Shown: positions 8,353 to 44,443 of the stretch, one piece after another
Numbering within the stretch: position 1 is the first letter of the stretch
Layout: each line of letters opens with the position of its first letter
Source: a virus
Lineage: Duplodnaviria > Heunggongvirae > Uroviricota > Caudoviricetes
Virus record (IMG/VR): IMGVR_UViG_3300007609_001205
Span: 40,834 to 104,833 of that record
Length of the DNA: 64,000 nucleotides
Strand: one strand, 5' to 3'
Position numbers and translations under genes: made by a program
The notes under the pieces: generated by a model
What the model saw: the letters and a program-made list of their open reading frames with translations, nothing else
Told to the model about the DNA's origin: nothing
Databases searched by the model: none

Positions 8353-11300
8353 CTCAACCTCTTAGTACCAAGTGTCGCATTCCTATATTGCTTCGATGTT
8401 AAATTAGCAAATGCCTCTAATTCCTGTATATCAAGTATCCCCTTTATCTCATAATTCTTTCTATCTCTCCAATTAAGACCATAACCATTATTAGAACTCA
8501 CCTCAACAACTATAAATGGGTCAATATTTGAATCAACCGTGAAGTTGAATGGGTCAGTGTTAGAAGATAGCCTTCTCTCACTTATTCGTTGAATTGGATG
8601 TAAATCTATCTCTTTCCATTCTGTTATATCAATCCAATTCGTAAATTGACCACCATTATCATTCACGGGTGGAATAACTGAGGCTGTTACAGATTGTGTC
8701 ATTCCATAACCAGAAAATATATAATTATACCTATTATAACTCACAACATCAGAAACATTATAAGTAGTACCCGTTTTCCATTCCGGAACATCCTCATACT
8801 TCCGAGGGTTATTCAAACGATTATCACCAATAACAGACTCATACACCTTATCAAAATAAATAACCTTTTCACCGACAGAATATGTCTTCAATGGATACCA
8901 TTCACGGTATATCTCATATGTTTTGATATCAACAACATATTCGTCCGGCAATGATTGAGTTACACCAAGTGGTTGATCTGCATAAAAATCAAGAACACAA
9001 TTATACACAGTTGATCCATTATTAACAGGCATCAAATAAGATTCATTCAATCTAAAACTGATAGGTGTCATCGATTCCCTCACATTGAATATGGTAACAT
9101 CTCTCATCTGGTGAGAAATATAAGTGTTCTGAACAAAATCTGTTCGACCGGTGATATCCAATATCTTATGTGATAATGGTATTATATTCCCCTGCAACCA
9201 ATATTTCAAACCTTGTAACTTTTTCTGAACCTCCTCAAGAGTATATGTCAGAACACTATTACCATCTCTATCAGTTATACGGTAAGTAAGGTTGAATAAA
9301 TTCGTGTCTTCATATGTATCATTTGGAAATGTACCTTTCAAAAAGTCATTATCTTCCCACCCCACAACAGTTTGGTCAAATATATCAGGTATCTCTACTT
9401 TGAACAATTTCATATAGTTTTTTGAAAGGCGATCAACATTCTTATAATATTCATACAGTTCAAGGTCATTATAACCAAAATAGTTTATGGCATTTATTAT
9501 TGACTTATATGCCCCAACATATGGGTATATAACATGTCGCATCATCAACATCTCTTTACGTTTCTTATTAAGGAATGTCCAATCAATTCCTTCTTCTTTA
9601 ATATCATACTCCTTAAAAATATAAACATCATCTGATGATATCAATTTACCCATATTGTTCAATTCCGTCTTGTATCTTATGTCTTCATTTTCGGTTTGAC
9701 CATATACGAAAAATCTCCCTATCTCTTTATCCCACACCCTTATACGCAACGACAAATAAGTAATTGAATTATCTGATGGATAGCCATTGACGATTGTTGA
9801 TTCATCTTCGAAAAAATCTATTTCTTTGAAAAATTCAACCTCTATCTCTCTTGAATAAACTGCCTTTACTTTCACCAAATAACCATTATTAACTGATATG
9901 TATTGGTTTGAAGCATTTGAAACATCATTTAAGAAAATGGCTATATGTTGCCCAACTTCAAGACCCCTATTGACAAACATGGTATTTGATTGTGGATTTA
10001 ACTTTATAAAACCCGAACGTTTTCCCGATACGGGATCAACCACGGTTGAAAATGATATTTCATTTGTAATATCTTGTGATACATCAATGGTAAAGTCAAT
10101 ATCTTCCTTCATATACAATTGTAATACTGAACGAAGTGCCCCCTCTTCTCTTGAACGATACCCGACAAAGGTTTCAATTGGTTGTGGTGTTGATGAAATA
10201 TCATCATTATCATCTACAAACCCCAATTCGTGGTCAATTCTCGGAAAAACGGTCTGTTGATAGATGGAATTTCCCACTTTGTCAATATCCCTATTAGGCT
10301 TATTGTTCAAATGAACCGTTGGCAAAGGCTTTTGACCAATATAGGCGAGTGGTCCATCAGTAGTCAGTTGTTCCCCCGAAAAATCATAAAGGAAAAATTC
10401 CGGAACATTATCCGAATACCATTTCCAATAAACACTTGCTGTTATACCGCCATTGAAATTGTATCGTGGTCTTCTCAAATAATCCCTCGTATTCAACCAG
10501 AGACCATCTGGTTGTGTATAATTAGGATGAAGAGCACCATATTGACTTTGTGTAACAGTCAATGGATTCGACACAACCACATTGGAAACCACAAAAGAAA
10601 CTTGTGGAACAACTTCAATTATCTGTGATAATGTAGGTTGCAAAAACCAAACAGAATTCCTATCCGGGTTGAAAACATTTCGTGTAGTATTATCACCAAC
10701 AGGTAATGTGAATAATTCCCTCACAACACCTGTAACAGAATTCATAACAGATATATTTGCATTACCCGGATCCTGATTGGAAATATAAACATCCCCATCA
10801 TAATAATTCAATACTTGGTATCCATATGCAGGCGGTACTGTATTATTATAAAATTGATTGCCATTGCTTGCATTTCTTTTATAAAACTTAGGTGCATCCG
10901 ATGATGCATATATAGAATCATCCACCCCTGAAAATTCAAGATAATTATTCGTTCCTGATGCAATACCAGTTGATATAACAACATTATTATCAATATAATA
11001 TAAATCCGAAGAGTCATAGAAATAAACTGCCTCTCTTACCGGGTCATAGATAACCTCATCATCTGTTACCGATGGAACAGAATACGTATTCACAACGGTT
11101 CGTGTCGAACCATCTATCCTTCTAACATCAGTTGGTGGGGAAACAACATACATATCCCCTTCAAATTCATTGAAAACAATATCATATCCCTGACCCGATA
11201 TGGTCTGCACCAATGAACCGGAATTGTATATTAGAACTGATGTATCTGTCGTAACATAAACATCCCCATTATCACGATTGAAATCAAGTGAGAATGCAGT

Positions 11301-14138: not shown

Positions 14139-14204
14139 TTAAATGATCAATTTGGTGTATATATAAAATTAGGTTATTCTCGGACAAATTCATATATTTA
14201 CAAA

Positions 14205-14486
14205 ATGAAAGTAATAATTGTATGGTATGAGAACTTTGTGTTCTTATATAAACATGGGAATAAATTAGGAACTGCTATAACAAATCAAATAGAATATTTG
14301 GAATATTTTGAAGGTACTAAAAAAGAATTCATGGTGAGATACCAAAAAGATTATCCAACTTCATCAAAACAAATTTTCTGCGATTCAAAACACCCACTTC
14401 GATTCCATATCAGACAGGCTATCGAAACATCATCCGAATTCAAAATAGTTGAAAGAAGTAGGAAATTGAAGAATATATTACGATAA
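14205..14486 (+). CDS. hypothetical small protein
   Basis: 93-aa ORF sitting between two minus-strand genes; balanced composition. Confidence 0.3.
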   Translation: MKVIIVWYENFVFLYKHGNKLGTAITNQIEYLEYFEGTKKEFMVRYQKDYPTSSKQIFCDSKHPLRFHIRQAIETSSEFKIVERSRKLKNILR

Positions 14487-15605
14487 TTTATCAGAGGAGG
14501 ATTTATAATTCTCCTCATACTTCTGAAGTATAATATCATACTGTTCTACCATAACTTCTCGAAATTTATCATTTGAATAAGTTTGGCGTTCAATATAGTT
14601 CTTGATATAATTTTCATAATCCAACTTCGTAGTTATCTCAACATCACCATCAGCAGCCTCTAGCAATATCTCTTCTTCATCTTCCTCATCCTCATCATCT
14701 ACTATATCATCAAGATAATCAATTGAAGCAAATCCACCTTTTGACAGTAATATCTCTAAATTCCTACGAATCTTCCTATCGGTAACAAGTAGGTTATTTG
14801 AAATAACAAGGTCTATATAATCCTTAGAATTTATCTCATCATCCAACTTATCAATATCTTCCTTTTCCTTTATAACAATTTCACGGAATATAGGTGAATA
14901 TTTATTTGGTACAAATTCAATCTCACCTGAATCTGGCCGAAGTATGGTTATTCCCTTCTGATCACCACGGTCATTCCTATCCATCTGATACGGAGAACCT
15001 ATAAATGTAAAGTTTTTAGTTCGTTGACGGATATGTATATGACCACTGAAAACATGCTCATATCTCGAAAATGCAGAAACATCAATTTTATCATGGTTTC
15101 TATGTGCAACAGAATTAAGATGCATTCGACAACCATTCAGATCGGAATGACAAAACAAATAATCACCCGGGCTATTCTCTATTTCCTTTATCATATCCAC
15201 TCTATGCTCAACCCAAGGCATAAGTACAAGTTTCTTTTCAGCAAAATCAATTGTAGTTGTTTCTGTATAAACATGAACATCATCTATATGATCGAAAAGC
15301 CTAACCGAATTAACATCATTCGTTCCCTTATTCCATAGATCATGGTTTCCAACTATCATATGAACTGGGAGTATCTTAGATATCTCTGTTATTATCTTCT
15401 CTGCTTTATAAGAAACAATAATAGGAATTGCAGTCCTATTATCATAGAGATCACCACAATGGATAAGAATATCTCCCTCTTCAACATTTTCTTTCAGAAA
15501 TGGTATATAGGAGTTCATAAAATAATCCTCCATCATATCCAACCATTTATCCAAATTATTCAAGTAAACACCAAAGTGCCAATCCGTAGTAATAAAAACC
15601 TTCAT
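14478..15605 (-). CDS. Mre11/SbcD-type nuclease, T4 gp47-like (calcineurin-like phosphoesterase)
   Basis: MKVFITTDWHFG, HCGDLYD and VGNHD are metallophosphoesterase motifs and are collinear with T4 gp47. Acidic C-terminal tail. Confidence 0.8.
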   Translation of the reverse strand: MKVFITTDWHFGVYLNNLDKWLDMMEDYFMNSYIPFLKENVEEGDILIHCGDLYDNRTAIPIIVSYKAEKIITEISKILPVHMIVGNHDLWNKGTNDVNSVRLFDHIDDVHVYTETTTIDFAEKKLVLMPWVEHRVDMIKEIENSPGDYLFCHSDLNGCRMHLNSVAHRNHDKIDVSAFSRYEHVFSGHIHIRQRTKNFTFIGSPYQMDRNDRGDQKGITILRPDSGEIEFVPNKYSPIFREIVIKEKEDIDKLDDEINSKDYIDLVISNNLLVTDRKIRRNLEILLSKGGFASIDYLDDIVDDEDEEDEEEILLEAADGDVEITTKLDYENYIKNYIERQTYSNDKFREVMVEQYDIILQKYEENYKSSSDKLS

Positions 15606-15656
15606 ATAATCTATTGATTTTAAAGGTTATATACATTATCACAGAATATGTTTAAG

Positions 15657-15694
15657 AAAAAAAAAACCCACCAATCGAATAAATGATTGGTGGG
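15657..15694 (-). terminator. intrinsic terminator (CCCACCAATC / GATTGGTGGG stem)
   Basis: 10-bp stem preceded by A10 on the + strand, which reads as hairpin + T10 on the minus strand. It lies between the tail tube and sbcD-like genes. Confidence 0.55.
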
Positions 15695-15716
15695 TTCAAA
15701 AATACACTCAATAGGA

Positions 15717-16343
15717 TTATACATATCCCGCCACGAATGGTGGAGATATTGTAAAGTTATTATCAATAAATTCATCAATCCAGTAATCACAAACAAAACT
15801 AGCATCTGCTTGAAAAATTTCTTTTGATGACCAATCCATTGATGGAGAAGATACAGATTTCAACTGACAGTTTTGGAATGTTACTCTTCGTAGAACAAGA
15901 CCCTTCTTATCATGTTGATTCACTATCATTGTACCAATAGTATCTGCTTTATAATGAAGAGTACCATTCTGTGAATTCCACGCAAGATCATACCAAGCCC
16001 TTAATGTATTCCATGTTTCCATAGAACCTTGGTTATTAACATTCACATTGAATTTAATACTCAAATCATCAATATGTGTCTGTTCCGGACCCGCATCCAA
16101 AAATGCACGTGTAGTGTATTTGAACCTTTGATCCTTTACACCAATTTGTTTATTGGTCAAGTTAAGGTCAATATCTGTTGCTTGTTGTAATAAAAGAACA
16201 GGGTCACGACCTTGTGCTTGTAATATTGTTGGTAAGATAAAAGTAATCTCGAATAAATTCATGAATACTGGCTCTTGTGGATCAGAACCCGGACCACCTG
16301 GTGACCCAGTCATTTGAAGTTGAGTGAAATGTGGTAATGGCAT
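15717..16343 (-). CDS. tail tube protein, T4 gp19-like
   Basis: MNLFEITF matches T4 gp19 PNLFQVEI, and C-terminal SFVCDYWIDE matches LALDYWE. 208 aa. A terminator follows the gene. Confidence 0.75.
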   Translation of the reverse strand: MPLPHFTQLQMTGSPGGPGSDPQEPVFMNLFEITFILPTILQAQGRDPVLLLQQATDIDLNLTNKQIGVKDQRFKYTTRAFLDAGPEQTHIDDLSIKFNVNVNNQGSMETWNTLRAWYDLAWNSQNGTLHYKADTIGTMIVNQHDKKGLVLRRVTFQNCQLKSVSSPSMDWSSKEIFQADASFVCDYWIDEFIDNNFTISPPFVAGYV

Positions 16344-16544
16344 ATGTTTTATGTTTCTTTTTGTTATATATTCCTTAGAATATTCTCTCTTGTATTATAT
16401 ATTCCAAACAAAAAGTCATTTTTTAACTTTCATCACAAAAAAGAAATATAAACATCAGTATATACCACACTAAAAAAGAGTTTTTATATTTTATATATAA
16501 TAATAGACTCACATAAAAAGTGGTCTAAAAATAAAGTATCTGTT

Positions 16545-16727
16545 ATGAGAAATATTAAAGAAAACAAATTAACTTCTGTTATGAAGTTCAATGAGTGGTC
16601 AAAAGAACCAAAGGCCGAGAAAGCCAATGGAGAAGTTACAAATGAATCTGCTAAATGTGATTGCACAGATTGTGATTGCAAAGGAGATTGTAAAAATTGT
16701 GACTGTGATTGTAGTTGCTGTAAATAA
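16545..16727 (+). CDS. small cysteine-rich protein (metallothionein-like CxC cluster)
   Basis: C-terminal 23 residues CDCTDCDCKGDCKNCDCDCSCCK contain 12 Cys arranged as CxC/CC. A TTTTATATATAATAAT motif lies ~60 nt upstream. Confidence 0.5.
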   Translation: MRNIKENKLTSVMKFNEWSKEPKAEKANGEVTNESAKCDCTDCDCKGDCKNCDCDCSCCK

Positions 16728-16744
16728 GACCAAACTAAACATAA

Positions 16745-17371
16745 TCAATTAGAATATAACAATTTACTAAGGGTTATAGGTGATGGGAAATATCCAATAT
16801 CATCTACTTTCCGTCTAACCGAATTGAATAAATTTGAATAGAACATATCATAATCCTTAAAAATAAAATCATTATTATCAACATCCTTTATTGATCGCCT
16901 ACTCTCAATAAAGTCCTTAATATCAATAACATTGAACCTAGAACACGCACCACCAATGACTGCATGTTTGGTATAAGTGTTACCTCTCCTAAAAGGAACA
17001 TCTTTAAAAACCCCCAATTCCTCATTAAGTGATAACAACTCATTGAATACTCGTTCTGTTATTTCTTGGTGCTCAATGAATATCCCACACAGGTTTTCAA
17101 GATGTTGTTCATCAAATCCAAATGGCAAATTCCATTTTTTGGATATACCACTGACACCAACTTTTTCTTCGAGATCCTGTGATGGGAATACTGTGGAAAA
17201 ATAGATATCATACTCAGGTAATTCATTTGTTTCCAATTTTAATTTATCCAATTCAGAATTAACAGATATATAATCACCCTTCAGAAAGTCGGCTTCTATC
17301 GTAGATACTATCTCACGAAATTTATCAAATCCTTGAAAATTTTCATATAGTTTAATATACCTCATCACCAT
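16745..17371 (-). CDS. hypothetical protein
   Basis: 208-aa ORF; nothing recognised. Confidence 0.5.
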   Translation of the reverse strand: MVMRYIKLYENFQGFDKFREIVSTIEADFLKGDYISVNSELDKLKLETNELPEYDIYFSTVFPSQDLEEKVGVSGISKKWNLPFGFDEQHLENLCGIFIEHQEITERVFNELLSLNEELGVFKDVPFRRGNTYTKHAVIGGACSRFNVIDIKDFIESRRSIKDVDNNDFIFKDYDMFYSNLFNSVRRKVDDIGYFPSPITLSKLLYSN

Positions 17372-17444
17372 ATATATTATATTTTAAACATAACAAGGGA
17401 GGGATTATATAAACATATATATGCTATAAAAATAACTTACTATT

Positions 17445-18395
17445 ATGACTCAAAGTAACCATATGTCCGAAGAGGATTATCTCAAAAAATACATAAGCAA
17501 TGATGGTGGCAATAATAACCAATCACTTGAAAATATTGAAAATTACGAGAAGGAAAACACAAATACGAGCAAATCAGGATCACGTACAGAAGACCTACAA
17601 TACTTAACATTTGATATAAATCAATTACCATGTGGTAAATTTTACCCAATGGGTACAATCTTAACCGTAAGAGCAGCACAAGTAAGAGAGATTCAAGCAT
17701 ATTCAATGGTCGATGATAACAACTTTTATGATGTGGTTGAGAAGATGAATGATATGTTAGCATCATGTGTCAGATTAAAAAGACCAGATGGTTCCTTTGG
17801 AACATATTTAGAACTAAAAGACCAAGATAGATTATTCATAATTTTTCTAATAAGAGAACTCACTTTCCAAAAAGGGAACTCACTTGAAGTAAAAGAAAAG
17901 TGTTCTTGTGGAGAAGAAGTTAGTATGGAATTGAAAAGGGAAAATTTCAAATTCCACAAAATAGAACCATCACTGGAAAAGTTCTTTGATAGTTCATCAC
18001 AATCGTTTGTATTTGAGTTGAAAAATGGTACTGTTTTCAACCTAACACCACCAACAATAGGCATACAAAAAGCATTCACTGAATACATAATTGAAGAAAA
18101 TAACCAAAAAAGAAAACCAGACCTATCCTTTTTGAAAATAATACCATTTCTATTAGATGGACGTAGTTCTATAACAAACGAAGGCATCAAGAAAAAATTA
18201 CAAAAGTATCAACAACTTTCACCAAATGAATTCCAATTCTTAAATTCGGCAGTAGATAAACTTACATTCGGGATAAAAAATCTTAGCAGAGAATGCACGT
18301 GTGGTCAGGAGGTCCACACGGAAATGTCATTTCCCAACGGAGCGTCAGGTATTTTCGTTATTCATGATGCCTTTGAAAAGTTTATTAAAGAATAA
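17445..18395 (+). CDS. hypothetical protein with duplicated C-x-C-G-(E/Q)-E-V motif
   Basis: EKCSCGEEV and RECTCGQEVHTE lie ~140 aa apart, suggesting internal duplication and possible metal binding. Confidence 0.5.
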   Translation: MTQSNHMSEEDYLKKYISNDGGNNNQSLENIENYEKENTNTSKSGSRTEDLQYLTFDINQLPCGKFYPMGTILTVRAAQVREIQAYSMVDDNNFYDVVEKMNDMLASCVRLKRPDGSFGTYLELKDQDRLFIIFLIRELTFQKGNSLEVKEKCSCGEEVSMELKRENFKFHKIEPSLEKFFDSSSQSFVFELKNGTVFNLTPPTIGIQKAFTEYIIEENNQKRKPDLSFLKIIPFLLDGRSSITNEGIKKKLQKYQQLSPNEFQFLNSAVDKLTFGIKNLSRECTCGQEVHTEMSFPNGASGIFVIHDAFEKFIKE

Positions 18396-18615
18396 ACTCC
18401 TTATACAAAAACATAATAATGTGAATGAAATGGCACTTGATTGTTGGCCATTTTGGATGTTGGAAGAAAATATCTCTATAATAAATGAAATGGTTGAGGA
18501 AGAAGAAAAAGAACGAAAAAACCAAGAGGATGAACAACAACACTCAATGCCCAATTTCAACCCCGGTCAATATATGAACCAAATGAAAAATATGACAAGT
18601 GGTTTTAAGAAATAA
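18301..18615 (+). CDS. hypothetical small acidic protein (start uncertain)
   Basis: Overlaps the 3' end of the preceding gene; the internal Met at ~18431 is more plausible. Confidence 0.25.
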   Translation: MVRRSTRKCHFPTERQVFSLFMMPLKSLLKNKLLIQKHNNVNEMALDCWPFWMLEENISIINEMVEEEEKERKNQEDEQQHSMPNFNPGQYMNQMKNMTSGFKK

Positions 18616-18658
18616 CCAACCTTTGAAAACCTTATTAAATAATAAGGATATATAATAT

Positions 18659-20296
18659 ATGATATTATCTGAAACCATTCAAGTAAAAACCAAGGGGAAT
18701 AAGAAACTCAAACACTACAATTCACTTGGATACAATACAAGTAAAGAGTTTATAGAAGTTTATATAAAGGACTTGCCTCTATCAATATCCAATGAGGTAT
18801 TAGTAAAATGTGATTATTGTGGCACTGAACACTATAAAAAGTATGTCGATTATAATAGAGTGGCAAGTGATACTAAATACGCATGTTCCCGTAAATGTGG
18901 AACGATCAAAGCAAAAGAAACAATTGAGAATTCCCCAAAAAAAGACCATCCCCTAAAAGGTAAAAAAATAGATCCGGATAAATTAAATGAGATAATCCAA
19001 AAAAGGATAAACACCAACATTGAAAAATATGGTGTTGAACATGTTCTACAAAAAGAAGAAATAAAAGAAAAATTCAAAAAAACCAACATAAAGAAATATG
19101 GGACTGACAACTATGCAAAAACAGACGAATTCATAGAAAGGCAACGAAAAAATACAATCGACAAATATGGTGTTACACATATATCAAAATTAGAAGAAAC
19201 AAAAGAGAAAATAAGAAGAACAAATATAAAGAAATATGGTGTTCCTTCCACATTGAATATTGAACGGGCAAATGAAAACAGACTTGAAGTTTTCAAATCT
19301 GAAGAACACAGAAAGGATTATGAAATATCTAATCACAAAGATTATATAAAATACATAGGAAACAGCACATCACTGTTCATGTGTGAAAAAGGACACGAAT
19401 TTCGAATAAAATATGATAATTATAAAAGTAGATTATCGAATAATATACCTTTATGTACCACATGTTACCCCATAAACAGTTTAACATCCATAAAAGAAGA
19501 AGAACTATACAACCACATATCATCACTATACAACAAAGAAGTCATAAAATCCCACCGGGATATAACGGAATTGGATATATACATCCCAAGCCTCAATATT
19601 GGGTTTGAATTCAATGGGTTATATTGGCATTCAAATAAATTCAAAGACAAGAATTACCATCTGAATAAGACAAATTACTTTAAGAAAAAGAACATAAGAG
19701 TTATACACATATGGGAAGATGAATGGGATAATAAGAAAGAAATAATATTATCACAAACAAAAAACCTACTCAACAAAAGCAATCGAATAGGTGCAAGAAA
19801 ATGCAAAGTTATTGAAATAAATGACACATCCATAAGTAAAGGATTCTTAAATGAAAACCACATACAAGGGAATGATAGATCCAATATTAAAATAGGACTA
19901 TATTACGAAGGAAACTTAGTATCTATTATGACATTTGATAAAAGTGAAGGCAGGAAAAAAATGCCAAATGGTGAATGGAATCTGTCAAGATTCTGTAACC
20001 TTAAAAACACAACAATAATGGGTGGATTCAGTAAATTACTTAAATATTTCATAAAAACATATAGTCCCAATAGAATAATAAGTTATGCAGACCGTTCGTG
20101 GTCAGAAGGAAATGTTTATACCAAAAACGGATTCACTAAAATATCAGAAACAAGACCCGATTATAAGTATTTAGTGAACAACCAAAGAATACACAAATCA
20201 AGGTATAGAAAATCATACACAGGTATCTCCGAATCAGATCTTGACATATTAAAAATATATGACTGTGGGAAGTTGAAATTTGAAATGGTATTATAA
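18659..20296 (+). CDS. DUF559/Vsr-like homing-endonuclease-type protein with KYG repeats
   Basis: Four ~30-aa repeats (IEKYGVEHV / IKKYGTDNY / IDKYGVTHI / IKKYGVPST). The central block DIYIPSLNIGFEFNGLYWHS...IRVIHIWEDEW matches the Vsr/DUF559 fold, followed by a C-terminal domain of unknown function. Confidence 0.6.
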   Translation: MILSETIQVKTKGNKKLKHYNSLGYNTSKEFIEVYIKDLPLSISNEVLVKCDYCGTEHYKKYVDYNRVASDTKYACSRKCGTIKAKETIENSPKKDHPLKGKKIDPDKLNEIIQKRINTNIEKYGVEHVLQKEEIKEKFKKTNIKKYGTDNYAKTDEFIERQRKNTIDKYGVTHISKLEETKEKIRRTNIKKYGVPSTLNIERANENRLEVFKSEEHRKDYEISNHKDYIKYIGNSTSLFMCEKGHEFRIKYDNYKSRLSNNIPLCTTCYPINSLTSIKEEELYNHISSLYNKEVIKSHRDITELDIYIPSLNIGFEFNGLYWHSNKFKDKNYHLNKTNYFKKKNIRVIHIWEDEWDNKKEIILSQTKNLLNKSNRIGARKCKVIEINDTSISKGFLNENHIQGNDRSNIKIGLYYEGNLVSIMTFDKSEGRKKMPNGEWNLSRFCNLKNTTIMGGFSKLLKYFIKTYSPNRIISYADRSWSEGNVYTKNGFTKISETRPDYKYLVNNQRIHKSRYRKSYTGISESDLDILKIYDCGKLKFEMVL

Positions 20297-20334
20297 CCAC
20301 CCAAAAGATACTATGATTATCTAATATATATAGT

Positions 20335-21000
20335 ATGAAATACCTTAAAAACTTTAAATCACTCAACGAAGAAAAAGATTGTGGGTGTGGATGTAATGGA
20401 GATTGTAACGGAAATTATAAATTAAACGAATCTGTGAATATTTCCGAATCTTTGGGATACCATATAGAAAATGACATACCACTCACAGAAAACATATTCA
20501 GATATGGCTCAGAACAATTCTTCAACACTATAAATGAGGCAAGAGAATTGTATTTATCCGGTGATCTAAAACTATCGGAGGAAAATGAGGAATTGGTTAA
20601 AACAGAAATTGGACAAAAGGCCATATTCGAAGGGAATGAAGTTTGGCTTGATATCCCAATGGAGGACGAAACCCCTATAAATGAATCCAAGGATAAGTAT
20701 AAAGGCAAAAAGTCTTCAAAACCAATGAGAGATACATCAGGGGGCAAAGCATATAAAGTATATGTACCCGGTTGTTCCAAGAAAACACCATCAAACCCAA
20801 GAGGTATAAAACTAGTTAGATTTGGATCTGGTGGTCTAAAGGCAAAGTTAAGTGACTCCGATGCCAAAAAACGATACGATTCAAGACATGGCTGTTCCAA
20901 AGGGAAACACAACGATAAATGTAAAGCCGGTTATTGGTCTTGTAGATTACCAAGATATGCAAAGGCACTTGGTCTAAGTGGTGGTGGAAAATGGTGGTAA
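20335..21000 (+). CDS. hypothetical protein with N-terminal CxC cluster and G/K-rich C-terminus
   Basis: DCGCGCNGDCNGN lies near the N-terminus and resembles the C-terminal CxC cluster of the 16545..16727 ORF. Confidence 0.5.
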   Translation: MKYLKNFKSLNEEKDCGCGCNGDCNGNYKLNESVNISESLGYHIENDIPLTENIFRYGSEQFFNTINEARELYLSGDLKLSEENEELVKTEIGQKAIFEGNEVWLDIPMEDETPINESKDKYKGKKSSKPMRDTSGGKAYKVYVPGCSKKTPSNPRGIKLVRFGSGGLKAKLSDSDAKKRYDSRHGCSKGKHNDKCKAGYWSCRLPRYAKALGLSGGGKWW

Positions 21001-21006
21001 TATAAT

Positions 21007-21399
21007 ATGAAATGTGAAAATTGTAATTGGGAATGGGATATTGAGAAAGATGATGAAAATCCATATCTATGCCATCAGTGTGGGTATGATACAAAATTGG
21101 GGGATTTTGATATGGAATCTTTCCACAAATGGTTGAGAGAAAATAGACCATATGACGAAGAATTGAAAGAGGGCTACCAGATAAGAACCTTCTACGAAAG
21201 TGTTGATAATGACGAATTGGTATGGCACAGAGATAAAGAAGATAGAATAATAGAACCCATTGGAGAAACAGATTGGTTATTCCAACACGACAACGAAATC
21301 CCGATTAAAATAGAAGGAAGAATATACATACCGAAGAATAAGTACCACCGAATAATCAAAGGATCTGGTGAACTTAAAATAAAACTGAGAAAATTATAA
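21007..21399 (+). CDS. zinc-ribbon protein
   Basis: MKCENCNWEW...CHQCGYD forms a CxxC...CxxC zinc ribbon. The gene is followed by a strong terminator. Confidence 0.5.
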   Translation: MKCENCNWEWDIEKDDENPYLCHQCGYDTKLGDFDMESFHKWLRENRPYDEELKEGYQIRTFYESVDNDELVWHRDKEDRIIEPIGETDWLFQHDNEIPIKIEGRIYIPKNKYHRIIKGSGELKIKLRKL

Positions 21400-21420
21400 A
21401 CAAACCTACGGAATATGTTA

Positions 21421-21452
21421 AAAAAAAAAGGAGTCTTTAAGACTCCTTTTTT
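21421..21452. terminator. bidirectional intrinsic terminator (AGGAGTC-TTTAA-GACTCCT)
   Basis: Perfect 7-bp stem flanked by A9 and T6. It sits between the convergent zinc-ribbon gene and the tail sheath gene. Confidence 0.7.
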
Positions 21453-21469
21453 AATTATAAAGAATAATA

Positions 21470-24400
21470 TCAAGACTGAATAAATCCACCTGACTGGATT
21501 GCACCATTTCTGAGCACATTCACATTATTCACAATTATACCCATTCCCTGAATAGGCTCGACATATGTATCGAGAACACCTATCTGATTAGCAATTATAT
21601 CACTTGTGTTATTCTCACCATCACACTTATTGAAGTATGCGAAAAGACCATCTCTCGATTTATAACTTTCACAAATAGAATCGGCTCTCAATTTTATCTC
21701 TGCTCTGATTTCAGGTGTGTTAAACTTCCACTGGTAATCAAGTAGCATATTTGTCAATTCTCTTTCCAATTCAATAAGCACTTCTCTAACATGTAAGAAT
21801 GATAAAGATGATTCGTACAATGTTTGTGCAGTGTTCTCTGTTTCGATAACGTGTCCTCTGTTTCGTTTGAAAACAATCGGGTTCATCATCGCACCATTTA
21901 AATTGGTTATGTCATCTGGTCCAAAGTCTTGCTCTACACCAGCAATATTAGTAATTCTACCATTAGTTATACCTGCTGCAATTGTCCAAGGAACAATATT
22001 AGTTACCGTGGATGTATGCTTTCTCATATAAGTAAGACCAACATATGCTGCCGGTGGAATACTTGCAGGACGACCACCATCATTCACAGTAAGGTATGGT
22101 CCGAAATAACCAACCGATGAAACACCAACCCCATCACCAAATGAGTAAAGGAATGCTGGAGAACTATTTGGATCACCACCACTTGCAATAAACTCTGTGC
22201 TTAGAACACCATCACTATCCAAGAAGGAAGGCGAAGATGAATTTTTGAAAGATTTCATCGATGGCATATTCAATATACCCAACACATCCAATCTTTCACC
22301 ACATATATCAACAAGTTGTTGCTTTGATCTCTCCGCAAGTCCAAGACCAAATCCATCAATCAAGTATCTGAAATCAAATGCTTCCTTATTTGTAATTGCT
22401 TTGAACAATGGTGTTCCTTTCGCAACCAAATTCAGAATATCTTCTTGTTTTGACTCAGTACCATCAGGCATAGACTCTTGTCTTATTCTAAAACCTTTAA
22501 GACTAATTGCTTTGTATGTTGAAACATAATCATCAACAGTTGTATATCTGAATGTCTGCTTATCACCATCGCCAAAATCTCTTATCTTGATTTCATCATC
22601 ACAAGTTATAACAACAAATGTGCTATCTTGTGCCCAAAGTCTCTTAGATAAAATACGTGTAAGTTTTCTAGGCATTTCATCAGACTCCAAAGATACTGTC
22701 GCATAGTTTGCCTCAAGATAATCACCAACTTTAATTTCAGTATATCTACTAGCACGTGCAAGGATTTTATTAGCAACCGGAACCCAACCAGATGGCTCAT
22801 CTACTTCAACAGATTGCTTGAAGTTAGAATCAAACGAATTGACATAGAAGTTATTATTCGCCAACAATGCATTGGCATCACCATCACCACCATTAAGTGT
22901 TCCAAATCTAGCAAGTGATTGAAGAGAAACATCTTCAAATGTTACCTTCATATTCAATTCATTATCAATGTACATATCAAGGTACAATGGAGCATCCTCA
23001 TAATCCCCACTATAAGCATATAAATTATCAACATCCAACAATTCTTCTACGACATTCTCATTTACCTCATATGCAAAATAACTATAAGTTGCAGATGATG
23101 AAGCAAACACACCACCACTCAAATTTGAAAGTTCCAATGCTCTTGCTTGTGCAGAAGCAGGTGTTGAATATGCTTGTACCGGGTTGTCTGGACTAAGACC
23201 TTCATCAGATTTAACAGTGAAAGAACCTTCATTCTCAACACCCGTAACAAGGAATTGGTAACCAGCACCCGAAACACTCACATCAGCCGCAGCCAAGAAT
23301 GCTTGGTTTCTATCAATATTATCATCACCGGCACCACCAAGTCCAGATAACTGAACTCCGTATGGATCTTCTTCCAATAAATTAACACCGAATACTAAAT
23401 AATCATAACCTGCAAGTGAAGCAGTTACAGACTCACCGGGAACAAACTCTGCCTTTAAAGAAGAGAAGTTTGTCTTTTGGTAAATAACATCGGTTGAATT
23501 AATAAGTCCTTGGTCATATTTCTGATATAAATCAGAATACCTACCAATAACCCCTTGTGTAAGACCTGCCGGTGCAGACGTTGTTTCCGCACCTTCAGTA
23601 CCTAGAATCATCTCGTCATCCACTTTATAAAATACAAGTGGCAATTCATTACCAGCAATCGAAATTGCATCAGTAACATCTGCAAAATAATTATCAACAT
23701 AATCATCCTCAACATATGTATTAGATGATGGGTTTGTAACAGTATAATCAAAATTCAAAACAAATGAACGATCCACTGTATTAGTGTTCTTAACATCAGT
23801 AACATCGACAAAAGAAAGTGATGATTTCTGTGGGTCACCTGAACCACCAAGTGGGTCAAGTAATAAAGACCCTCTATCAGAACTAGAAGTATCAATATAA
23901 CCAAGCATGTTATTAAATGTCTTAATTCTTCTATACTGTTCATAATCTCTTGGTGTAATACTCTGGTTCGTATCTTCAAATACAACCCTGAATGAATCCG
24001 TAGTTATACCATCATAATAATAATCATTACCAACACCATAAACCAATGGATTGAATGTAGTATCACCCGCACCCGTAACCGAATGGCGAAGTGAAACATC
24101 AACCAAGTTGAATGAACCACTTGAAAAAGTACCACCGGTATTAACAGAAAATGTTGCATAACCTAACACAATATCAGAAGCAGATGGTAATGGATTCGTA
24201 TCTGGTGTAGTAGTCTGATATGCTTTGACAACACCCGTTGAATCAAGAGCCATTGCAACATGATAAGTTTCATTAGTTGTAGATACTGGGTAGTAATCAG
24301 AAGTAACCTCCAAATTAAACGAAGAAGTTGCAATCTGTACCCAAGAACCACCTATAACACAATACCCATTGTCAGATGTAGCATCAACAGTATAATCCAT

Positions 24401-25720
24401 TGATATCGCAGTAGCAGATGTCACAGATGCTGTACCATTAAGGTCATTTACATAACCTTCAGAGAACCACCATGTTCTATTAGATGGGTTATGTACTTGT
24501 CCGGAAATAATACCACCAACTCTTTCACCAGCACCATAAAAAGAACCTCTACTTGCATGTTCGCCACCAAAACTTGGAACAGAACTTGTTCCAAACAATG
24601 CCATAACATTACCAGGTCTATCCAATACTTTCTGTGTCAATGACACACTCTCAGTAATTGTTTCTTGGTATGAAAGGTAATTGATATCAACATGACCATC
24701 ATCTGAACCATCATTTGTGTCCAAATTCGTATAGTTTGTTGACCCAGATGTTGGTGGATTAGGATTCAATGAATCTCTAACCAAATTATTACCAATAAGA
24801 TCAACTAGACCCTTAGGATAATCCGTTTCAAATAAATCAATGTTAAATGCACAGAATACACCATGTTCATCAGTACCTTGGTTTATAACAGTTTCTATAA
24901 ATATATTTCGGCCATTTTGATCTCTGAAATAAGGTATCATAGAAAGACCCTCTGCATATGCAAGAGTTGTTACATTCCTATCATTTGCAAAATTTCTCAA
25001 CTCATCTTTTCTAAGACCAGATGCCGAGAAATATTGTGAAAATCTAGCATCAACAGATAAATTCAAATAATTTGAATAATCTCCCGCAATGACCACAACA
25101 TCCACAAGGTAATCGGAAACCAAATCCTTAGAATTTACATAAGGTGGGATATCTTCTTGTGATCCATACCATTCAATCATCGGAACATCAAAACCACTTC
25201 TTTGTGATTTAACGACAAATATTGTTACATATTTATCAGATAAGTTCGTAAAGTTAAGCAATCTATTTTCGTATCCTGAATTATCATCTGCCAATGCCAA
25301 GAAAGAATCAGTATCCCTCTTCCAAAAACCGGTTGTATCAAAGAATCTTCTATATGGACCCTCTCTTTCAACATCATTTTGGTATGTAGTAGCACACGAC
25401 AAAGACTGGTATTCTATTTTATCAAGAACATCATCAGTAATCAACAAGTTTATTGCATAAACTGGCGATGCTTCCAACATTTTAGAAATTGTTCTATGAA
25501 AGAAAGAACCCTTTCTTTCAAGTTGTCTATCAATAGGACCGAAGACCGATTCAAGAGAATTGATATTATCGATAAGGATAGGTGTATTAACCGGTCCCTT
25601 TCGTGAAACACCGATCACAGTATTAACAATACCATCAACTGTTGGGCTTGTTATAACTGACTGATCACTTTCTTCTGTAAAAATCCCTGGTCTTCCGTAT
25701 TTTCCGATTTGGATTGCCAT
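21470..25720 (-). CDS. tail sheath protein, T4 gp18-like (1416 aa with large insertions)
   Basis: N-terminus RPGIFTEESDQSVITSPTVDGIVNTVIGVSRKGPVNTPILIDNINSLESVFGP parallels T4 gp18 SPGIELKETTVQSTVV...GKFQWGPAFQIKQVTNEVDLVNTFGQP. C-terminus FNTPEIRAEIKLRADSICESYKSRDGLFAYFNKCDGENNTSD parallels the gp18 C-terminal domain. Confidence 0.75.
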   Translation of the reverse strand: MAIQIGKYGRPGIFTEESDQSVITSPTVDGIVNTVIGVSRKGPVNTPILIDNINSLESVFGPIDRQLERKGSFFHRTISKMLEASPVYAINLLITDDVLDKIEYQSLSCATTYQNDVEREGPYRRFFDTTGFWKRDTDSFLALADDNSGYENRLLNFTNLSDKYVTIFVVKSQRSGFDVPMIEWYGSQEDIPPYVNSKDLVSDYLVDVVVIAGDYSNYLNLSVDARFSQYFSASGLRKDELRNFANDRNVTTLAYAEGLSMIPYFRDQNGRNIFIETVINQGTDEHGVFCAFNIDLFETDYPKGLVDLIGNNLVRDSLNPNPPTSGSTNYTNLDTNDGSDDGHVDINYLSYQETITESVSLTQKVLDRPGNVMALFGTSSVPSFGGEHASRGSFYGAGERVGGIISGQVHNPSNRTWWFSEGYVNDLNGTASVTSATAISMDYTVDATSDNGYCVIGGSWVQIATSSFNLEVTSDYYPVSTTNETYHVAMALDSTGVVKAYQTTTPDTNPLPSASDIVLGYATFSVNTGGTFSSGSFNLVDVSLRHSVTGAGDTTFNPLVYGVGNDYYYDGITTDSFRVVFEDTNQSITPRDYEQYRRIKTFNNMLGYIDTSSSDRGSLLLDPLGGSGDPQKSSLSFVDVTDVKNTNTVDRSFVLNFDYTVTNPSSNTYVEDDYVDNYFADVTDAISIAGNELPLVFYKVDDEMILGTEGAETTSAPAGLTQGVIGRYSDLYQKYDQGLINSTDVIYQKTNFSSLKAEFVPGESVTASLAGYDYLVFGVNLLEEDPYGVQLSGLGGAGDDNIDRNQAFLAAADVSVSGAGYQFLVTGVENEGSFTVKSDEGLSPDNPVQAYSTPASAQARALELSNLSGGVFASSSATYSYFAYEVNENVVEELLDVDNLYAYSGDYEDAPLYLDMYIDNELNMKVTFEDVSLQSLARFGTLNGGDGDANALLANNNFYVNSFDSNFKQSVEVDEPSGWVPVANKILARASRYTEIKVGDYLEANYATVSLESDEMPRKLTRILSKRLWAQDSTFVVITCDDEIKIRDFGDGDKQTFRYTTVDDYVSTYKAISLKGFRIRQESMPDGTESKQEDILNLVAKGTPLFKAITNKEAFDFRYLIDGFGLGLAERSKQQLVDICGERLDVLGILNMPSMKSFKNSSSPSFLDSDGVLSTEFIASGGDPNSSPAFLYSFGDGVGVSSVGYFGPYLTVNDGGRPASIPPAAYVGLTYMRKHTSTVTNIVPWTIAAGITNGRITNIAGVEQDFGPDDITNLNGAMMNPIVFKRNRGHVIETENTAQTLYESSLSFLHVREVLIELERELTNMLLDYQWKFNTPEIRAEIKLRADSICESYKSRDGLFAYFNKCDGENNTSDIIANQIGVLDTYVEPIQGMGIIVNNVNVLRNGAIQSGGFIQS

Positions 25721-25800
25721 ATTATTTAAATTATTTTTTATCTATTAGGTTATATATAAAATAAAAAAAATCAACTTTTTCTATTTCGGATATAATGATA

Positions 25801-44383: not shown

Positions 44384-44443
44384 TAGTAACTTTTAATTAT
44401 GAGTTATATATAAATTATACAAAGACATCTTAATATATAAACT

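What the first reader, a model, noticed from the sequence alone, without database searches (positions are those of the whole stretch)
16344..21469. About 5 kb island splitting tail sheath from tail tube
In T4 and most myoviruses the sheath (gp18) and tube (gp19) genes are adjacent. Here the sheath gene (21470..25720) and tube gene (15717..16343) are separated by seven ORFs. Six of these are on the opposite strand and include two Cys-cluster proteins, a zinc-ribbon protein, a duplicated CxCG(E/Q)EV protein and a DUF559-type endonuclease. This looks like an insertion, possibly endonuclease-mobilised, into the tail module, and its cargo is uncharacterised.
Basis: partly seen in the sequence, partly recalled or inferred. 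Interest (0 to 1): 0.6.

Follow-up and report, generated by a model that had tools for sequence, protein, structure and literature searches.

The report
Patchwork gap between sheath and tube
The 5 kb between the tail sheath and tail tube genes of this huge phage is not one inserted island: it is a conserved tail-assembly gene pair, found there in almost all relatives, flanked by two variable slots, one holding a selfish homing-endonuclease gene and an accessory gene pair that sits elsewhere in relatives.

Summary
Sheath (21470-25720, -) and tube (15717-16343, -) are correctly assigned and are separated by seven real ORFs, six of them on the + strand. A bidirectional terminator lies at 21419-21457.

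The window comes from a megaphage related to LR756502 and LR745206. The "single insertion" reading is only partly right.

- **Conserved core.** orf316 (the CxCG(E/Q)EV protein, with a fold like T4 gp51/gp26) and the small ORF that overlaps it lie between sheath and tube in 77 of 81 related loci.
- **Lineage-conserved genes.** cys60 and orf208 are also present at this position in the closest relatives.
- **Window-specific part.** Only 18616-21399 is specific to this genome. It holds an intact Hef-type (Vsr-like) free-standing homing endonuclease gene and the cys221-zr130 pair.
- **Evidence of mobility.** The endonuclease gene is patchily distributed among relatives and carries a scar copy of the orf316/small-ORF junction. 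The cys221-zr130 pair occupies other positions in relatives.
- **Same slot in relatives.** It is empty, or holds an aminoacyl-tRNA synthetase, a glutamate-synthase-domain gene or other endonuclease genes.

This is an ordinary hyperplastic region associated with homing endonuclease genes.

One side observation is more unusual. The last ~22 codons of orf316 almost lack synonymous variation, exactly where the +1-frame ORF opens. That fits either a programmed +1 frameshift or a conserved translation-start element.

The parts
15717..16343 (-). Tail tube gene (208 aa). It forms the left border of the region.
   Evidence: Matches phrog_45 'tail tube' at 3.3e-13 and phrog_32623 at 8.7e-15. It is 88-91% identical to the tube of L098 and L100. 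It is homologous to PAU gp92, PTm1 gp019 and MA9V-2 056, which lie next to the sheath in those phages.
15664..15697 (-). Intrinsic terminator after the tube gene.
   Evidence: Scan hit with 13 base pairs followed by a T-run. Folds at -23.2 kcal/mol, z = -5.75.
16344..16544 (.). Divergent intergenic region between tube(-) and cys60(+). It holds a perfect copy of the 17-mer TTATATTTTATATATAA at 16484-16500(+).
   Evidence: The 17-mer has 7 hits in the window against 0.84 expected. The other hits include sites 20-52 nt upstream of the sheath, orf316 and the 934-aa ORF. The promoter role is inferred.
16545..16727 (+). cys60: a 60-aa protein with a metallothionein-like Cys-rich tail. It is lineage-specific cargo in the variable slot between tube and orf316.
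   Evidence: Homologues sit at the same position in L100 (63% over the alignment) and L098 (41%). No homologue is seen in the other ~90 loci.
16745..17371 (-). orf208: a lineage-restricted protein of unknown function in the slot between tube and orf316.
   Evidence: Homologues lie between tube and orf316 in L098, L100 (59% each) and L007 (47%). The L006 homologue (53%) lies upstream of orf316 in a rearranged locus. A search of 5.8 billion proteins gave only 3 hits. No Pfam, PHROG or NCBIfam match.
17445..18395 (+). orf316: conserved core gene with a duplicated CxCG(E/Q)EV motif. It is probably a tail or baseplate-hub assembly protein (fold like T4 gp51/gp26).
   Evidence: Matches phrog_36717 at 1.4e-20. 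It has 1242 homologues. It lies between sheath and tube in 77 of 81 loci. AF2 model: pLDDT 72, pTM 0.70. Foldseek against BFVD finds PAU gp93 and PTm1/pT24 proteins at 1e-11 to 1e-17, then 'baseplate hub assembly protein T4-like' and 'gp51-like' at 2.6e-5 to 1.2e-3.
18330..18395 (+). Last ~22 codons of orf316, where synonymous variation almost disappears. This overlaps the opening of the +1-frame ORF. A candidate +1 slip site, TTT_CCC_A, lies at 18330-18336.
   Evidence: The synonymous-difference fraction is 0.06-0.08 here against 0.28-0.48 elsewhere in the gene, across 67 homologues. The DNA is nearly invariant. The +1 frame is open for at least 68 nt into orf316 in all 65 loci. CCC is the rarest Pro codon, at 9%.
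18364..18615 (+). Small conserved ORF (83 aa from ATG 18364; listed at first as 18430-18615). It overlaps orf316 by 32 nt in the +1 frame and is the partner of orf316 in all relatives.
   Evidence: tblastn hits directly after orf316 in about 85 loci. Amino-acid conservation continues upstream of 18430 in L098 and L100, which have no ATG at that position. An 83-aa gene is called on the identical ENA contig. PAU, MA9V-2 and PTm1 have equivalent small ORFs in the same +1 frame.
18616..18645 (+). Degenerate copy (scar) of the orf316-end/small-ORF-start junction, directly upstream of HE545. It marks the left edge of the endonuclease cassette.
   Evidence: 88% identical over 26 nt to 18370-18395 (family D9). 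That junction is the best non-self match in the whole 64-kb window (score 20; next best 14). The same holds in L006 (score 16; next best 11). A copy is present upstream of all four orthologous endonuclease genes. In L063 its ATG is in frame with the endonuclease ORF.
18659..20296 (+). HE545: intact free-standing homing endonuclease gene of the Hef type (Vsr-like 'EDxHD' nuclease). It has zinc ribbons and KYG repeats (DUF7487).
   Evidence: Matches phrog_3339 at 3.5e-106 and PF24308 at 4.4e-17. It is 30% identical over residues 160-541 to Hef of phage U5, E = 6e-28, and similar to many genes annotated 'Hef-like'. D306, N319 and H324 are invariant and D354 is nearly invariant across 13 paralogues. 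Hef-type enzymes belong to the Vsr-like family (PMC3239194).
20335..21000 (+). cys221: accessory protein of unknown function (N-terminal CxCxC cluster, two domains). It is the first gene of a widespread phage gene pair.
21007..21399 (+). zr130: second gene of the pair. It has an N-terminal CxxC...CxxC ribbon and a conserved ~85-aa core (WHRD...YHRxIKG).
   Evidence: It always follows a cys221-like gene. It is 82% identical to the L101 copy. The ribbon is shared with the L101, L086 and L103 versions and is absent from the versions in the usual slot.
21419..21457 (.). Bidirectional intrinsic terminator shared by the + strand unit (orf316 to zr130) and the sheath gene.
   Evidence: Inverted repeat I13. 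Folds at -15.7 and -17.0 kcal/mol, z = -3.6 and -3.9, with U-runs on both strands. Relatives without cargo have an equivalent hairpin directly after the small ORF.
21470..25720 (-). Tail sheath gene (1416 aa). It forms the right border of the region.
   Evidence: Matches phrog_34521 at 2.4e-87. It is about 50-53% identical (tblastn) to the sheaths of LR756502 and LR745206, and 80-81% identical to L098 and L100.

Best explanation
The sheath-tube gap is a composite with three kinds of content.

**(1) A conserved core.** This is orf316 plus the small overlapping ORF (17445-18615), which I take to be a tail or baseplate-hub assembly pair. In the wider group the pair follows the tube gene on the same strand. 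In this megaphage clade old inversions placed it between sheath and tube. In the window's sub-lineage it is read divergently from the tube and convergently with the sheath.

**(2) Two variable slots flanking that core.** These are the divergent promoter region between tube and orf316, and the 3'-end region between the small ORF and the sheath terminator. Different relatives carry different cargo in them.

**(3) The window's own cargo.**
- The first slot holds cys60 and orf208, which are shared with the closest relatives.
- The second slot holds a promoter-less cassette inserted upstream of the shared bidirectional terminator.
- That cassette is an intact Hef-type homing endonuclease gene followed by the accessory pair cys221-zr130.

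**Mechanism.**
- The endonuclease gene most likely spreads by homing, that is, double-strand break repair between co-infecting relatives. It is probably expressed by read-through from the orf316 unit.
- The cys221-zr130 pair arrived by recombination, from another position or from another member of the clade.

**Shown:** the gene identities, the synteny pattern, the patchy distribution, the scar, and the position of the terminator.

**Inferred:** endonuclease activity, homing, co-transcription, and the route by which cys221-zr130 arrived.
For: **Core status of orf316 and the small ORF.**
- They lie between sheath and tube in 77 of 81 loci.
- The order sheath > tube > orf316-like > small ORF is seen in LR756501, PAU, MA9V-2 and PTm1.

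**Variable slots.**
- The tube-orf316 gap is only ~190-220 bp in L060, L071 and L072.
- The gap between the small ORF and the sheath is ~90-145 bp, with just a hairpin terminator, in L053-L057 and L071.
- Elsewhere the second slot holds a class I aminoacyl-tRNA synthetase (L007, L060), a glutamate-synthase-domain gene (L100, P0002 contig), or other Hef-like genes on either strand.

**Closest relatives.** L098 and L100 (sheath 80-81%, tube 88-91%) share the backbone, cys60 and orf208. They lack HE545 and cys221-zr130 at this site.

**Endonuclease.**
- HE545 belongs to the Hef family.
- Orthologues at 58-60% identity sit at the same site in L006, L007 and L063 but not in closer relatives.
- 17 of 91 loci carry at least one Hef-like gene near sheath or tube.
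- The scar copy of the orf316/small-ORF junction sits at the 5' edge of the cassette.

**Expression context.** There is no terminator between the small ORF and HE545. The terminator follows zr130.

**cys221-zr130.**
- It is 82-83% identical to a copy near the capsid gene in L101, which belongs to the same clade.
- It is 41-58% identical to the copies in the usual sbcD|big1929 slot.
- It is of the zinc-ribbon subtype.

**Precedent.** T4 free-standing endonuclease genes sit between conserved genes and are often promoter-less cassettes. Co-conversion of flanking DNA accompanies homing (PMC2988022).
Against: - No nearly identical genome lacking the endonuclease was found. The closest relatives are ~80% identical in protein, so insertion junctions cannot be aligned at the DNA level.
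- Endonuclease activity and its target site are untested.
- Only about 20 kb of each relative was examined. L098 and L100 may carry cys221-zr130 elsewhere, and the direction and route of its relocation are unknown.
- The patchy distribution of the endonuclease could reflect repeated loss rather than gain.
- The function assigned to orf316 rests on low-TM Foldseek matches (0.28-0.50) and synteny, not on a family-level sequence match.
Confidence: 0.8

Rival explanations
1. One reading: the whole ~5.1 kb is a single island inserted into an originally adjacent sheath-tube pair, mobilised by its endonuclease.
For: Six ORFs lie on the opposite strand. An endonuclease gene is present. A terminator sits at one edge. 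In distant relatives (LR756501, PAU) sheath and tube are adjacent or nearly so.
Against: orf316 and the small ORF are homologous to core genes present in every relative, and they lie between sheath and tube in 77 of 81 loci. cys60 and orf208 are conserved in place in L098 and L100, which lack the endonuclease at this site. There is no compositional difference, no repeat flanking the whole segment and no integrase. The content of the region varies piece by piece among relatives rather than as a unit.
Confidence: 0.04
2. The + strand block orf316 > small ORF > HE545 > cys221 > zr130 is a selected functional operon. On this view cys221-zr130 are tail or virion assembly factors recruited next to the hub-assembly gene for co-expression, and the endonuclease gene is an incidental passenger.
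For: There is no terminator between the genes, and a single terminator follows zr130. In most of the clade the pair sits in the same structural-gene neighbourhood, between sbcD and the 1929-aa CBM-containing protein. Other phages also carry it among structural or packaging genes.
Against: The pair occupies at least three different positions within the clade and many contexts outside it. No structural or functional assignment was obtained. The same slot in relatives holds unrelated metabolic genes.
Confidence: 0.15
3. The arrangement is a metagenome assembly chimera.
For: The source is an uncultured metagenomic contig, and the region contains repeated endonuclease-family genes that can confuse assemblers.
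Against: An independent ENA contig of 81 kb is 100% identical over 12,621 bp across the whole region. The same proteins are recorded on a JGI contig of 152 kb. The backbone arrangement is shared by L098, L100, L007 and others. Reading frames and the terminator are intact.
Confidence: 0.02

Closest known systems
Free-standing homing endonuclease genes of T4-like phages (seg and mob genes; Hef of phage U5)
   Same: HE545 is homologous to Hef itself and to many genes annotated 'Hef-like'. It sits in an intergenic position between conserved, essential structural genes. It looks like a promoter-less cassette inside an existing transcription unit. Its distribution among relatives is patchy. All of these are features described for T4 free-standing endonucleases (PMC2988022). 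Hef-type enzymes belong to the Vsr-like 'EDxHD' family (PMC3239194).
   Different: HE545 is larger (545 aa) and has extra N-terminal zinc-ribbon and DUF7487 repeat modules. The host genome is a megaphage only distantly related to T4. The insertion site is in the tail module rather than among nucleotide-metabolism genes. The cassette carries a duplicated copy of the neighbouring gene's start region. Activity is untested.
Hyperplastic (plastic) regions of T4-superfamily genomes and 'HEG islands' (Barth et al. 2023, PMC10448857)
   Same: Conserved core genes are interrupted by slots whose content differs from phage to phage. Endonuclease genes cluster next to essential genes and at the boundaries of exchanged segments (abstract of PMC10448857).
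   Different: In this clade the core genes themselves (tube, and orf316 with its small ORF) have also been inverted relative to the sheath. No long tracts of high nucleotide identity bracketed by endonuclease genes were found. The T4-superfamily 'hyperplastic region' concept is cited from my own knowledge (Comeau et al. 2007) and was not re-read here.
T4 gp51/gp26 baseplate hub assembly proteins
   Same: The orf316 model matches BFVD entries named 'baseplate hub assembly protein, T4-like' and 'T4 gp51-like' (E = 2.6e-5 to 1.2e-3). orf316 is a conserved neighbour of tail genes.
   Different: There is no Pfam or PHROG sequence match to that family. TM-scores are low (0.28-0.50). orf316 has two CxCG motifs and an overlapping downstream ORF.
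Tail assembly chaperones with programmed frameshift (lambda G/GT, P2 E/E')
   Different: The shift would have to be +1 (or -2) rather than the usual -1. orf316 is much larger than typical chaperones. A conserved ATG allows independent initiation of the small ORF. In the window's clade the pair is not next to a tape-measure-like gene. This comparison rests partly on my own knowledge of Xu et al. 2004.

Membership tests
Hef-type (Vsr-like, EDxHD) free-standing homing endonuclease [HE545] | Sequence homology to the characterised Hef protein and its family | tested here: met
   tblastn to phage U5 hef: 30.3% identity over residues 160-541, E = 6e-28. There are many 'Hef-like homing endonuclease' hits. 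phrog_3339 'homing endonuclease' matches at 3.5e-106.
Hef-type (Vsr-like, EDxHD) free-standing homing endonuclease [HE545] | Conserved Vsr-like catalytic residues (acidic, Asp, Asn/His, His, Asp) | tested here: met
   D306, N319 and H324 are invariant and D354 is nearly invariant in 13 paralogues. The spacing of +13, +18 and +48 compares with +13, +18 and +46 for Vsr D51, H64, H69 and D97, as numbered in PMC3239194. This is a motif-level test only.
   Pfam gives only DUF7487 at E<=0.1; DUF559 and Vsr are not listed. phmmer against PDB finds nothing at E<=1. The Vsr link therefore rests on the literature statement about Hef-type enzymes and on the motif.
Hef-type (Vsr-like, EDxHD) free-standing homing endonuclease [HE545] | Free-standing gene in an intergenic site between conserved genes, patchily distributed among relatives | tested here: met
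   The orthologue is at the same site in L006, L007 and L063. It is absent there in the closer relatives L098 and L100 and in L053-L057 and L071. Paralogues occur at other sites and in both orientations.
Hef-type (Vsr-like, EDxHD) free-standing homing endonuclease [HE545] | Site-specific cleavage of endonuclease-less alleles and preferential inheritance (homing) | not testable with these tools
   This requires biochemistry or co-infection experiments.
Single inserted genomic island (whole 16344-21469) | Present or absent as one unit, with an empty site in relatives | tested here: not met
   orf316 and the small ORF are present in all relatives, and between sheath and tube in 77 of 81 loci. The remaining pieces vary independently.
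Single inserted genomic island (whole 16344-21469) | Atypical composition, flanking repeats, or an integrase/transposase | tested here: not met
   GC is 0.28-0.39 inside and 0.30-0.39 outside. No repeat brackets the segment. No integrase or transposase family match was found.
T4 gp51/gp26-like baseplate hub assembly protein [orf316] | Sequence or fold match to the family | tested here: inconclusive
   No T4 baseplate-hub family appears in the Pfam scan at E<=0.1, which returned only a weak Cauli_DNA-bind match. Foldseek against BFVD gives E = 2.6e-5 to 1.2e-3 to entries so named, but with TM 0.28-0.50 and a model pLDDT of 72.
T4 gp51/gp26-like baseplate hub assembly protein [orf316] | Conserved position within the tail/baseplate module | tested here: met
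   It is next to sheath and tube in about 90 loci and in the cultured phages PAU, PTm1, pT24 and MA9V. The exception is the Lak phages, where it lies far from the sheath.
Tail assembly chaperone with programmed frameshift [orf316 + small ORF] | Downstream ORF in another frame that overlaps the 3' end, with constraint on synonymous sites at the junction | tested here: met
   The small ORF is in the +1 frame in all 65 loci and in PAU, MA9V-2 and PTm1, with the open frame overlapping by 68-146 nt. Synonymous differences are 0.06-0.08 over codons 294-316 against 0.28-0.48 elsewhere.
Tail assembly chaperone with programmed frameshift [orf316 + small ORF] | A functional slippery site and a fusion protein | not testable with these tools
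   The candidate site TTT_CCC_A at 18330-18336 is invariant, and CCC is the rarest Pro codon. However, a conserved ATG at 18364 permits independent initiation.
Tail assembly chaperone with programmed frameshift [orf316 + small ORF] | Chaperone fold | tested here: inconclusive

The most novel reading that the evidence does not exclude
The conserved heart of the 'island' may be a gp51/gp26-like tail-hub assembly gene that makes two products through a conserved programmed +1 ribosomal frameshift at UUU_CCC_A (18330-18336). One product would be orf316. The other would be an orf316-small-ORF fusion, analogous to the G/GT tail assembly chaperones but with a different fold, size and shift direction.

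This would be conserved from Sphingomonas phage PAU and the Flavobacteriia jumbo phages to megaphages of more than 600 kb.

A related point concerns the Hef-type endonuclease cassette. It has copied the start region of the small ORF. In L063 that copy is in frame with the endonuclease ORF, which suggests the cassette borrows the small ORF's translation signals.
Probability: 0.3. Interest if true: 0.6.

Novelty: new member of a known kind. Interest (0 to 1): 0.3.

Why it matters
For annotation, the segment should not be labelled a mobile island or treated as foreign cargo. Part of it (orf316 and the small ORF) is core tail-assembly machinery of a large and abundant clade of huge phages. orf316 alone has more than 1,200 homologues in metagenomes.

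For phage evolution, it shows that the tail module is not syntenically fixed even in megaphages.
- Core genes have been inverted.
- Two defined slots collect homing endonuclease genes, auxiliary metabolic genes and an accessory gene pair that occupies different positions in different relatives.
- This is the same logic known from T4-like phages.

The junction between orf316 and the small ORF is a concrete, cheap-to-test candidate for recoding in a family of proteins of unknown function. If confirmed, it would extend the two-product tail chaperone principle to a new protein family.

Tried and rejected
- **Nucleotide search.** Megablast of 12 kb against 50,697 phage records gave only a 173-bp hit, so there is no close cultured or deposited relative. 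A 'distant' blastn search with cys221-zr130 found nothing.
- **Sigma-70 promoter scan.** It was uninformative: 55 sites against 65.5 expected.
- **Inverted or direct repeats as rearrangement or insertion borders.** Nothing brackets the whole segment. Only the 26-nt junction copy (D9) and the terminator (I13) were meaningful.
- **Family searches.** Pfam and NCBIfam gave nothing for cys60, orf208, orf316, cys221 or zr130.
- **HE545 against PDB by sequence.** No hit.
- **A horizontal-transfer idea that I withdrew.** I first thought cys221-zr130 had come from an unrelated T4-like phage, because L101 shares no other gene with the window. The L101 capsid protein turned out to be 65% identical to that of LR745206, so L101 belongs to the same megaphage clade.
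- **Small ORF start.** I first placed it at 18424/18430. I revised it to 18364 after seeing coding conservation upstream.
- **Exact-sequence look-up of the window's own orf316 cluster representative.** This failed. The source contig was reached through orf208 instead.
- **Literature.** One search for a known frameshift in gp26/gp51-like genes returned nothing relevant.

Full report
**1. What is there**

The flanking genes are the sheath at 21470-25720(-), 1416 aa, and the tube at 15717-16343(-), 208 aa. Seven ORFs lie between them:

| ORF | Coordinates and strand |
|---|---|
| cys60 | 16545-16727(+) |
| orf208 | 16745-17371(-) |
| orf316 | 17445-18395(+) |
| small ORF | ends at 18615(+) |
| HE545 | 18659-20296(+) |
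| cys221 | 20335-21000(+) |
| zr130 | 21007-21399(+) |

The sheath matches PHROG 'tail sheath' at 2.4e-87. The tube matches 'tail tube' at 3.3e-13. Its Pfam gp19 match is below the cut-off. The gene after the tube is an SbcD-like nuclease.

GC content is 0.28-0.39 inside the segment and 0.30-0.39 outside it. Only the skews flip, together with the coding strand.

The hairpin at 21419-21457 is a good bidirectional terminator: -15.7 and -17.0 kcal/mol, z = -3.6 and -3.9, with U-runs on both strands. A strong terminator also follows the tube gene.

An ENA contig of 81 kb is 100% identical to window 10745-23365. The arrangement is therefore not a one-off assembly product.

**2. Where the window comes from**

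The sheath protein finds the uncultured megaphages LR756502 and LR745206 at about 50-53% identity. It then finds LR756504, LR756501/3 and LR756500, and more distantly the Lak phages and the jumbo phages PTm1, pT24, PAU and MA9V.

LR756502 and LR745206 are genomes of more than 630 kb, from a French lake and a Japanese subsurface sample (PMC9723777). The phage is therefore a megaphage. 'T4-like' applies only in the loose sense of having a contractile tail.

**3. Synteny in relatives**

orf316 has 230 confirmed relatives in IMG/VR and 1242 in the protein collection. I mapped the window's proteins on about 100 fetched loci.

Sheath, tube and orf316 are all visible in 81 loci. In 77 of these, orf316 and the small ORF lie between sheath and tube.

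- **Arrangement A (64 loci):** sheath+ orf316+ smallORF+ tube- sbcD+ zr130- cys221- big1929+.
- **Arrangement B (10 loci, the window's own arrangement):** tube- orf316+ smallORF+ sheath-.
- **Three other variants** also have orf316 between sheath and tube.

Only the distant LR756501, LR756504, LR756500 and PAU have sheath > tube > orf316 on one strand. PTm1 and MA9V-2 show that same order in their annotation.

The separation of sheath and tube by this gene pair is therefore an old, fixed feature of the clade. It was produced by inversions of core genes, not by an insertion.

**4. The two variable slots**

*Slot 1, between tube and orf316.* In arrangement B the tube-orf316 gap shrinks to ~190-220 bp in L060, L071 and L072.
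- The window holds cys60 and orf208 here.
- The closest relatives, L098 and L100 (sheath 80-81%, tube 88-91% identical), hold homologues of both plus extra ORFs.
- L053, L054, L056 and L063 hold a fragment of a second type of homing endonuclease. That type is related to window ORF 47-1639.

*Slot 2, between the small ORF and the sheath.* This gap shrinks to ~90-145 bp, with just a hairpin terminator, in L053-L057 and L071. Its contents in other loci are:

| Locus | Content of slot 2 |
|---|---|
| window | HE545, cys221, zr130 |
| L100 and the P0002 contig | a glutamate-synthase-domain gene |
| L007, L060 | a class I aminoacyl-tRNA synthetase |
| L098, L063, L066, L069, L072, L085 | other Hef-like genes, on the opposite strand |

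orf208 is very rare. A search of 5.8 billion proteins gave three hits.

**5. The endonuclease**

HE545 matches phrog_3339 'homing endonuclease' at 3.5e-106 and DUF7487 at 4.4e-17. By tblastn it matches Hef of phage U5 (30% over residues 160-541, E = 6e-28) and many genes annotated 'Hef-like'.

Hef-type enzymes were placed in the Vsr-like 'EDxHD' family by Taylor et al. (PMC3239194). In an alignment of 13 paralogues D306, N319 and H324 are invariant and D354 is nearly invariant, with Vsr-like spacing. The ORF is intact.

Orthologues at 58-60% identity occupy the same site in L006, L007 and L063. They are absent from that site in the closer relatives L098 and L100. In all, 17 of 91 loci carry at least one Hef-like gene near sheath or tube, and LR756500 has four. 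This patchiness is what homing predicts, although repeated loss is not excluded.

**6. A scar at the cassette edge**

Directly upstream of HE545 lies a 26-30-nt degenerate copy (18616-18645) of the sequence at 18366-18395. That sequence is the end of orf316, which is also the start of the small ORF. The two are 88% identical.
- In the window, that junction is the best non-self match to the copy anywhere in the 64 kb. The same is true in L006.
- The copy is recognisable upstream of all four orthologous endonuclease genes.
- In L063 its ATG is in frame with the endonuclease ORF.

I read this as a recombination scar. It would show that this endonuclease lineage once sat directly at the orf316/small-ORF junction and took a copy of that start region with it. 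This is inference.

In the window no terminator separates the small ORF from HE545. The shared terminator comes after zr130. The cassette therefore looks promoter-less and read through from the orf316 unit, as described for several T4 seg and mob genes (PMC2988022).

**7. The cys221-zr130 pair**

cys221 has more than 3,000 homologues and is always followed by a zr130-like gene, in many phage contexts.

In arrangement A and in L007 the pair lies between sbcD and the 1929-aa protein. The window has only a 93-aa ORF at that position.

The window's copies compare with other copies as follows.
- They are 83% and 82% identical to a pair in L101. That contig's capsid protein is 65% identical to LR745206, so it belongs to the same clade. 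In L101 the pair lies near the capsid gene and is split by an I-TevI-like endonuclease gene.
- They are only 41-58% identical to the copies in the usual slot.
- The window's zr130 has the N-terminal zinc ribbon, which the usual-slot versions lack.

The pair has therefore moved or been exchanged within the clade. Whether HE545 carried it in cannot be decided.

**8. What orf316 is**

The AF2 model has pLDDT 72 and pTM 0.70.

Taken with the synteny, the best reading is a tail or baseplate-hub assembly factor. Confidence in this is moderate.

**9. Side observation: the junction between orf316 and the small ORF**

- *Start of the small ORF.* It begins upstream of the ATG at 18430. Coding conservation in its frame runs through 18396-18429 in L098 and L100, which have no ATG at that position. 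A conserved ATG lies at 18364 inside orf316. The ENA gene call is 83 aa.
- *Synonymous variation.* Among 67 orf316 homologues the synonymous-difference fraction is 0.28-0.48 along the gene. It falls to 0.06-0.08 over codons 294-316. A 47-nt stretch is nearly invariant in sequences that are only 56-69% identical in protein.
- *Coincidence with the +1 frame.* The suppression starts ~34 nt upstream of the ATG. That is exactly where the +1 frame opens in every locus.
- *Candidate slip site.* The suppressed stretch begins with TTT_CCC_A. CCC is the rarest Pro codon in the window's genes, at 9%.
- *Distant phages.* In PAU, MA9V-2 and PTm1 the small ORF is also in the +1 frame, and that frame is open 113-146 nt into the upstream gene.

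Two readings remain. One is independent initiation at the conserved ATG plus a conserved start-region element. The other is a programmed +1 frameshift that gives a fusion protein, as in the G/GT tail chaperones. I cannot decide between them here.

**10. Verdict**

The 'single, endonuclease-mobilised island' interpretation is only partly supported.

The region is a typical example of a conserved phage module with hyperplastic slots colonised by free-standing homing endonuclease genes and accessory genes. It is new only in that it occurs in a megaphage clade and in the tail module. Interest is modest. The junction recoding candidate is the one element that could turn out to be unusual.

Noticed in passing
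window 18303-18430: Synonymous variation collapses over the last ~22 codons of orf316 (0.06-0.08 against 0.28-0.48 elsewhere), exactly where the +1-frame small ORF opens. The invariant stretch begins with TTT_CCC_A, which contains the rarest Pro codon. The same +1 overlap is seen in PAU, MA9V-2 and PTm1. This could be a programmed +1 frameshift or a conserved translation-start element.
   Followed up: partly
window 18616-18645; also L006 ~11158, L007 ~11146, L063 ~2200: A degenerate copy of the orf316-end/small-ORF-start junction sits directly upstream of each orthologous Hef-type endonuclease gene. In L063 the copy's ATG is in frame with the endonuclease ORF.
   Followed up: partly
window 16484-16500(+), 17377-17393(+), 25750-25766(-), 44404-44420(-): The 17-mer TTATWTTTTATATATAA has 7 hits against 0.84 expected. 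Four of them lie 20-52 nt upstream of start codons in the right orientation (cys60, orf316, sheath, and a 934-aa ORF). It is a candidate phage promoter motif.
   Followed up: partly
window 47-1639(+): A second, different homing-endonuclease-like gene (DUF723, DUF4379 treble-clef finger, DUF2726; phrog_559 at 9e-109). Truncated relatives of it occupy the tube-orf316 slot in L053, L054, L056 and L063, and lie beside the tube in L006.
   Followed up: partly
window 21470-25720(-): The sheath is 1416 aa. Only its N-terminal ~370 and C-terminal ~450 residues align with sheaths of more distant phages, which implies a very large central insertion.
   Followed up: no
window 41579-44383(-): This 934-aa ORF carries the promoter-like 17-mer upstream. 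It is weakly similar (29% over 106 aa, E = 1.7e-4) to PAU gp97, the ~1,100-aa gene that follows the orf316-like/small-ORF pair in PAU. It may be the tape-measure or hub protein, here ~23 kb away from its usual neighbours.
   Followed up: no
window 8349-14138(-): A 1929-aa protein with a CBM_5_12 carbohydrate-binding module (2.5e-8). It is conserved next to sbcD and tube in most relatives and is inverted in LR756502. It is probably a tail fibre or baseplate component.
   Followed up: no
window 14205-14486(+): A 93-aa ORF (conserved in L098 and L100) occupies the place where most of the clade carries the cys221-zr130 pair.
   Followed up: partly
L007 12988-15240; L060 7010-9265; L100 11137-12654; L098 1780-2514: Relatives carry auxiliary genes in or beside the same slots: a class I aminoacyl-tRNA synthetase, a glutamate-synthase-domain protein, and a SIR2-family protein.
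   Followed up: partly
L005 (LR756500) 12373-23029: Four Hef-like endonuclease genes surround the sheath and tube genes of this 462-kb phage, which is an extreme local density.
   Followed up: no
L101 3106-5832: In this clade member a DUF5824 gene precedes the cys221-like gene, and an I-TevI-like endonuclease gene is inserted between the cys221-like and zr130-like genes. In more distant phages (L086-L092) the cys221-like and zr130-like domains are parts of larger proteins.
   Followed up: no
window 33860-35959(+): Large terminase subunit (PF03237 at 5.7e-17; phrog_5989 at 4.4e-47), about 8 kb from the sheath-side genes.
   Followed up: no
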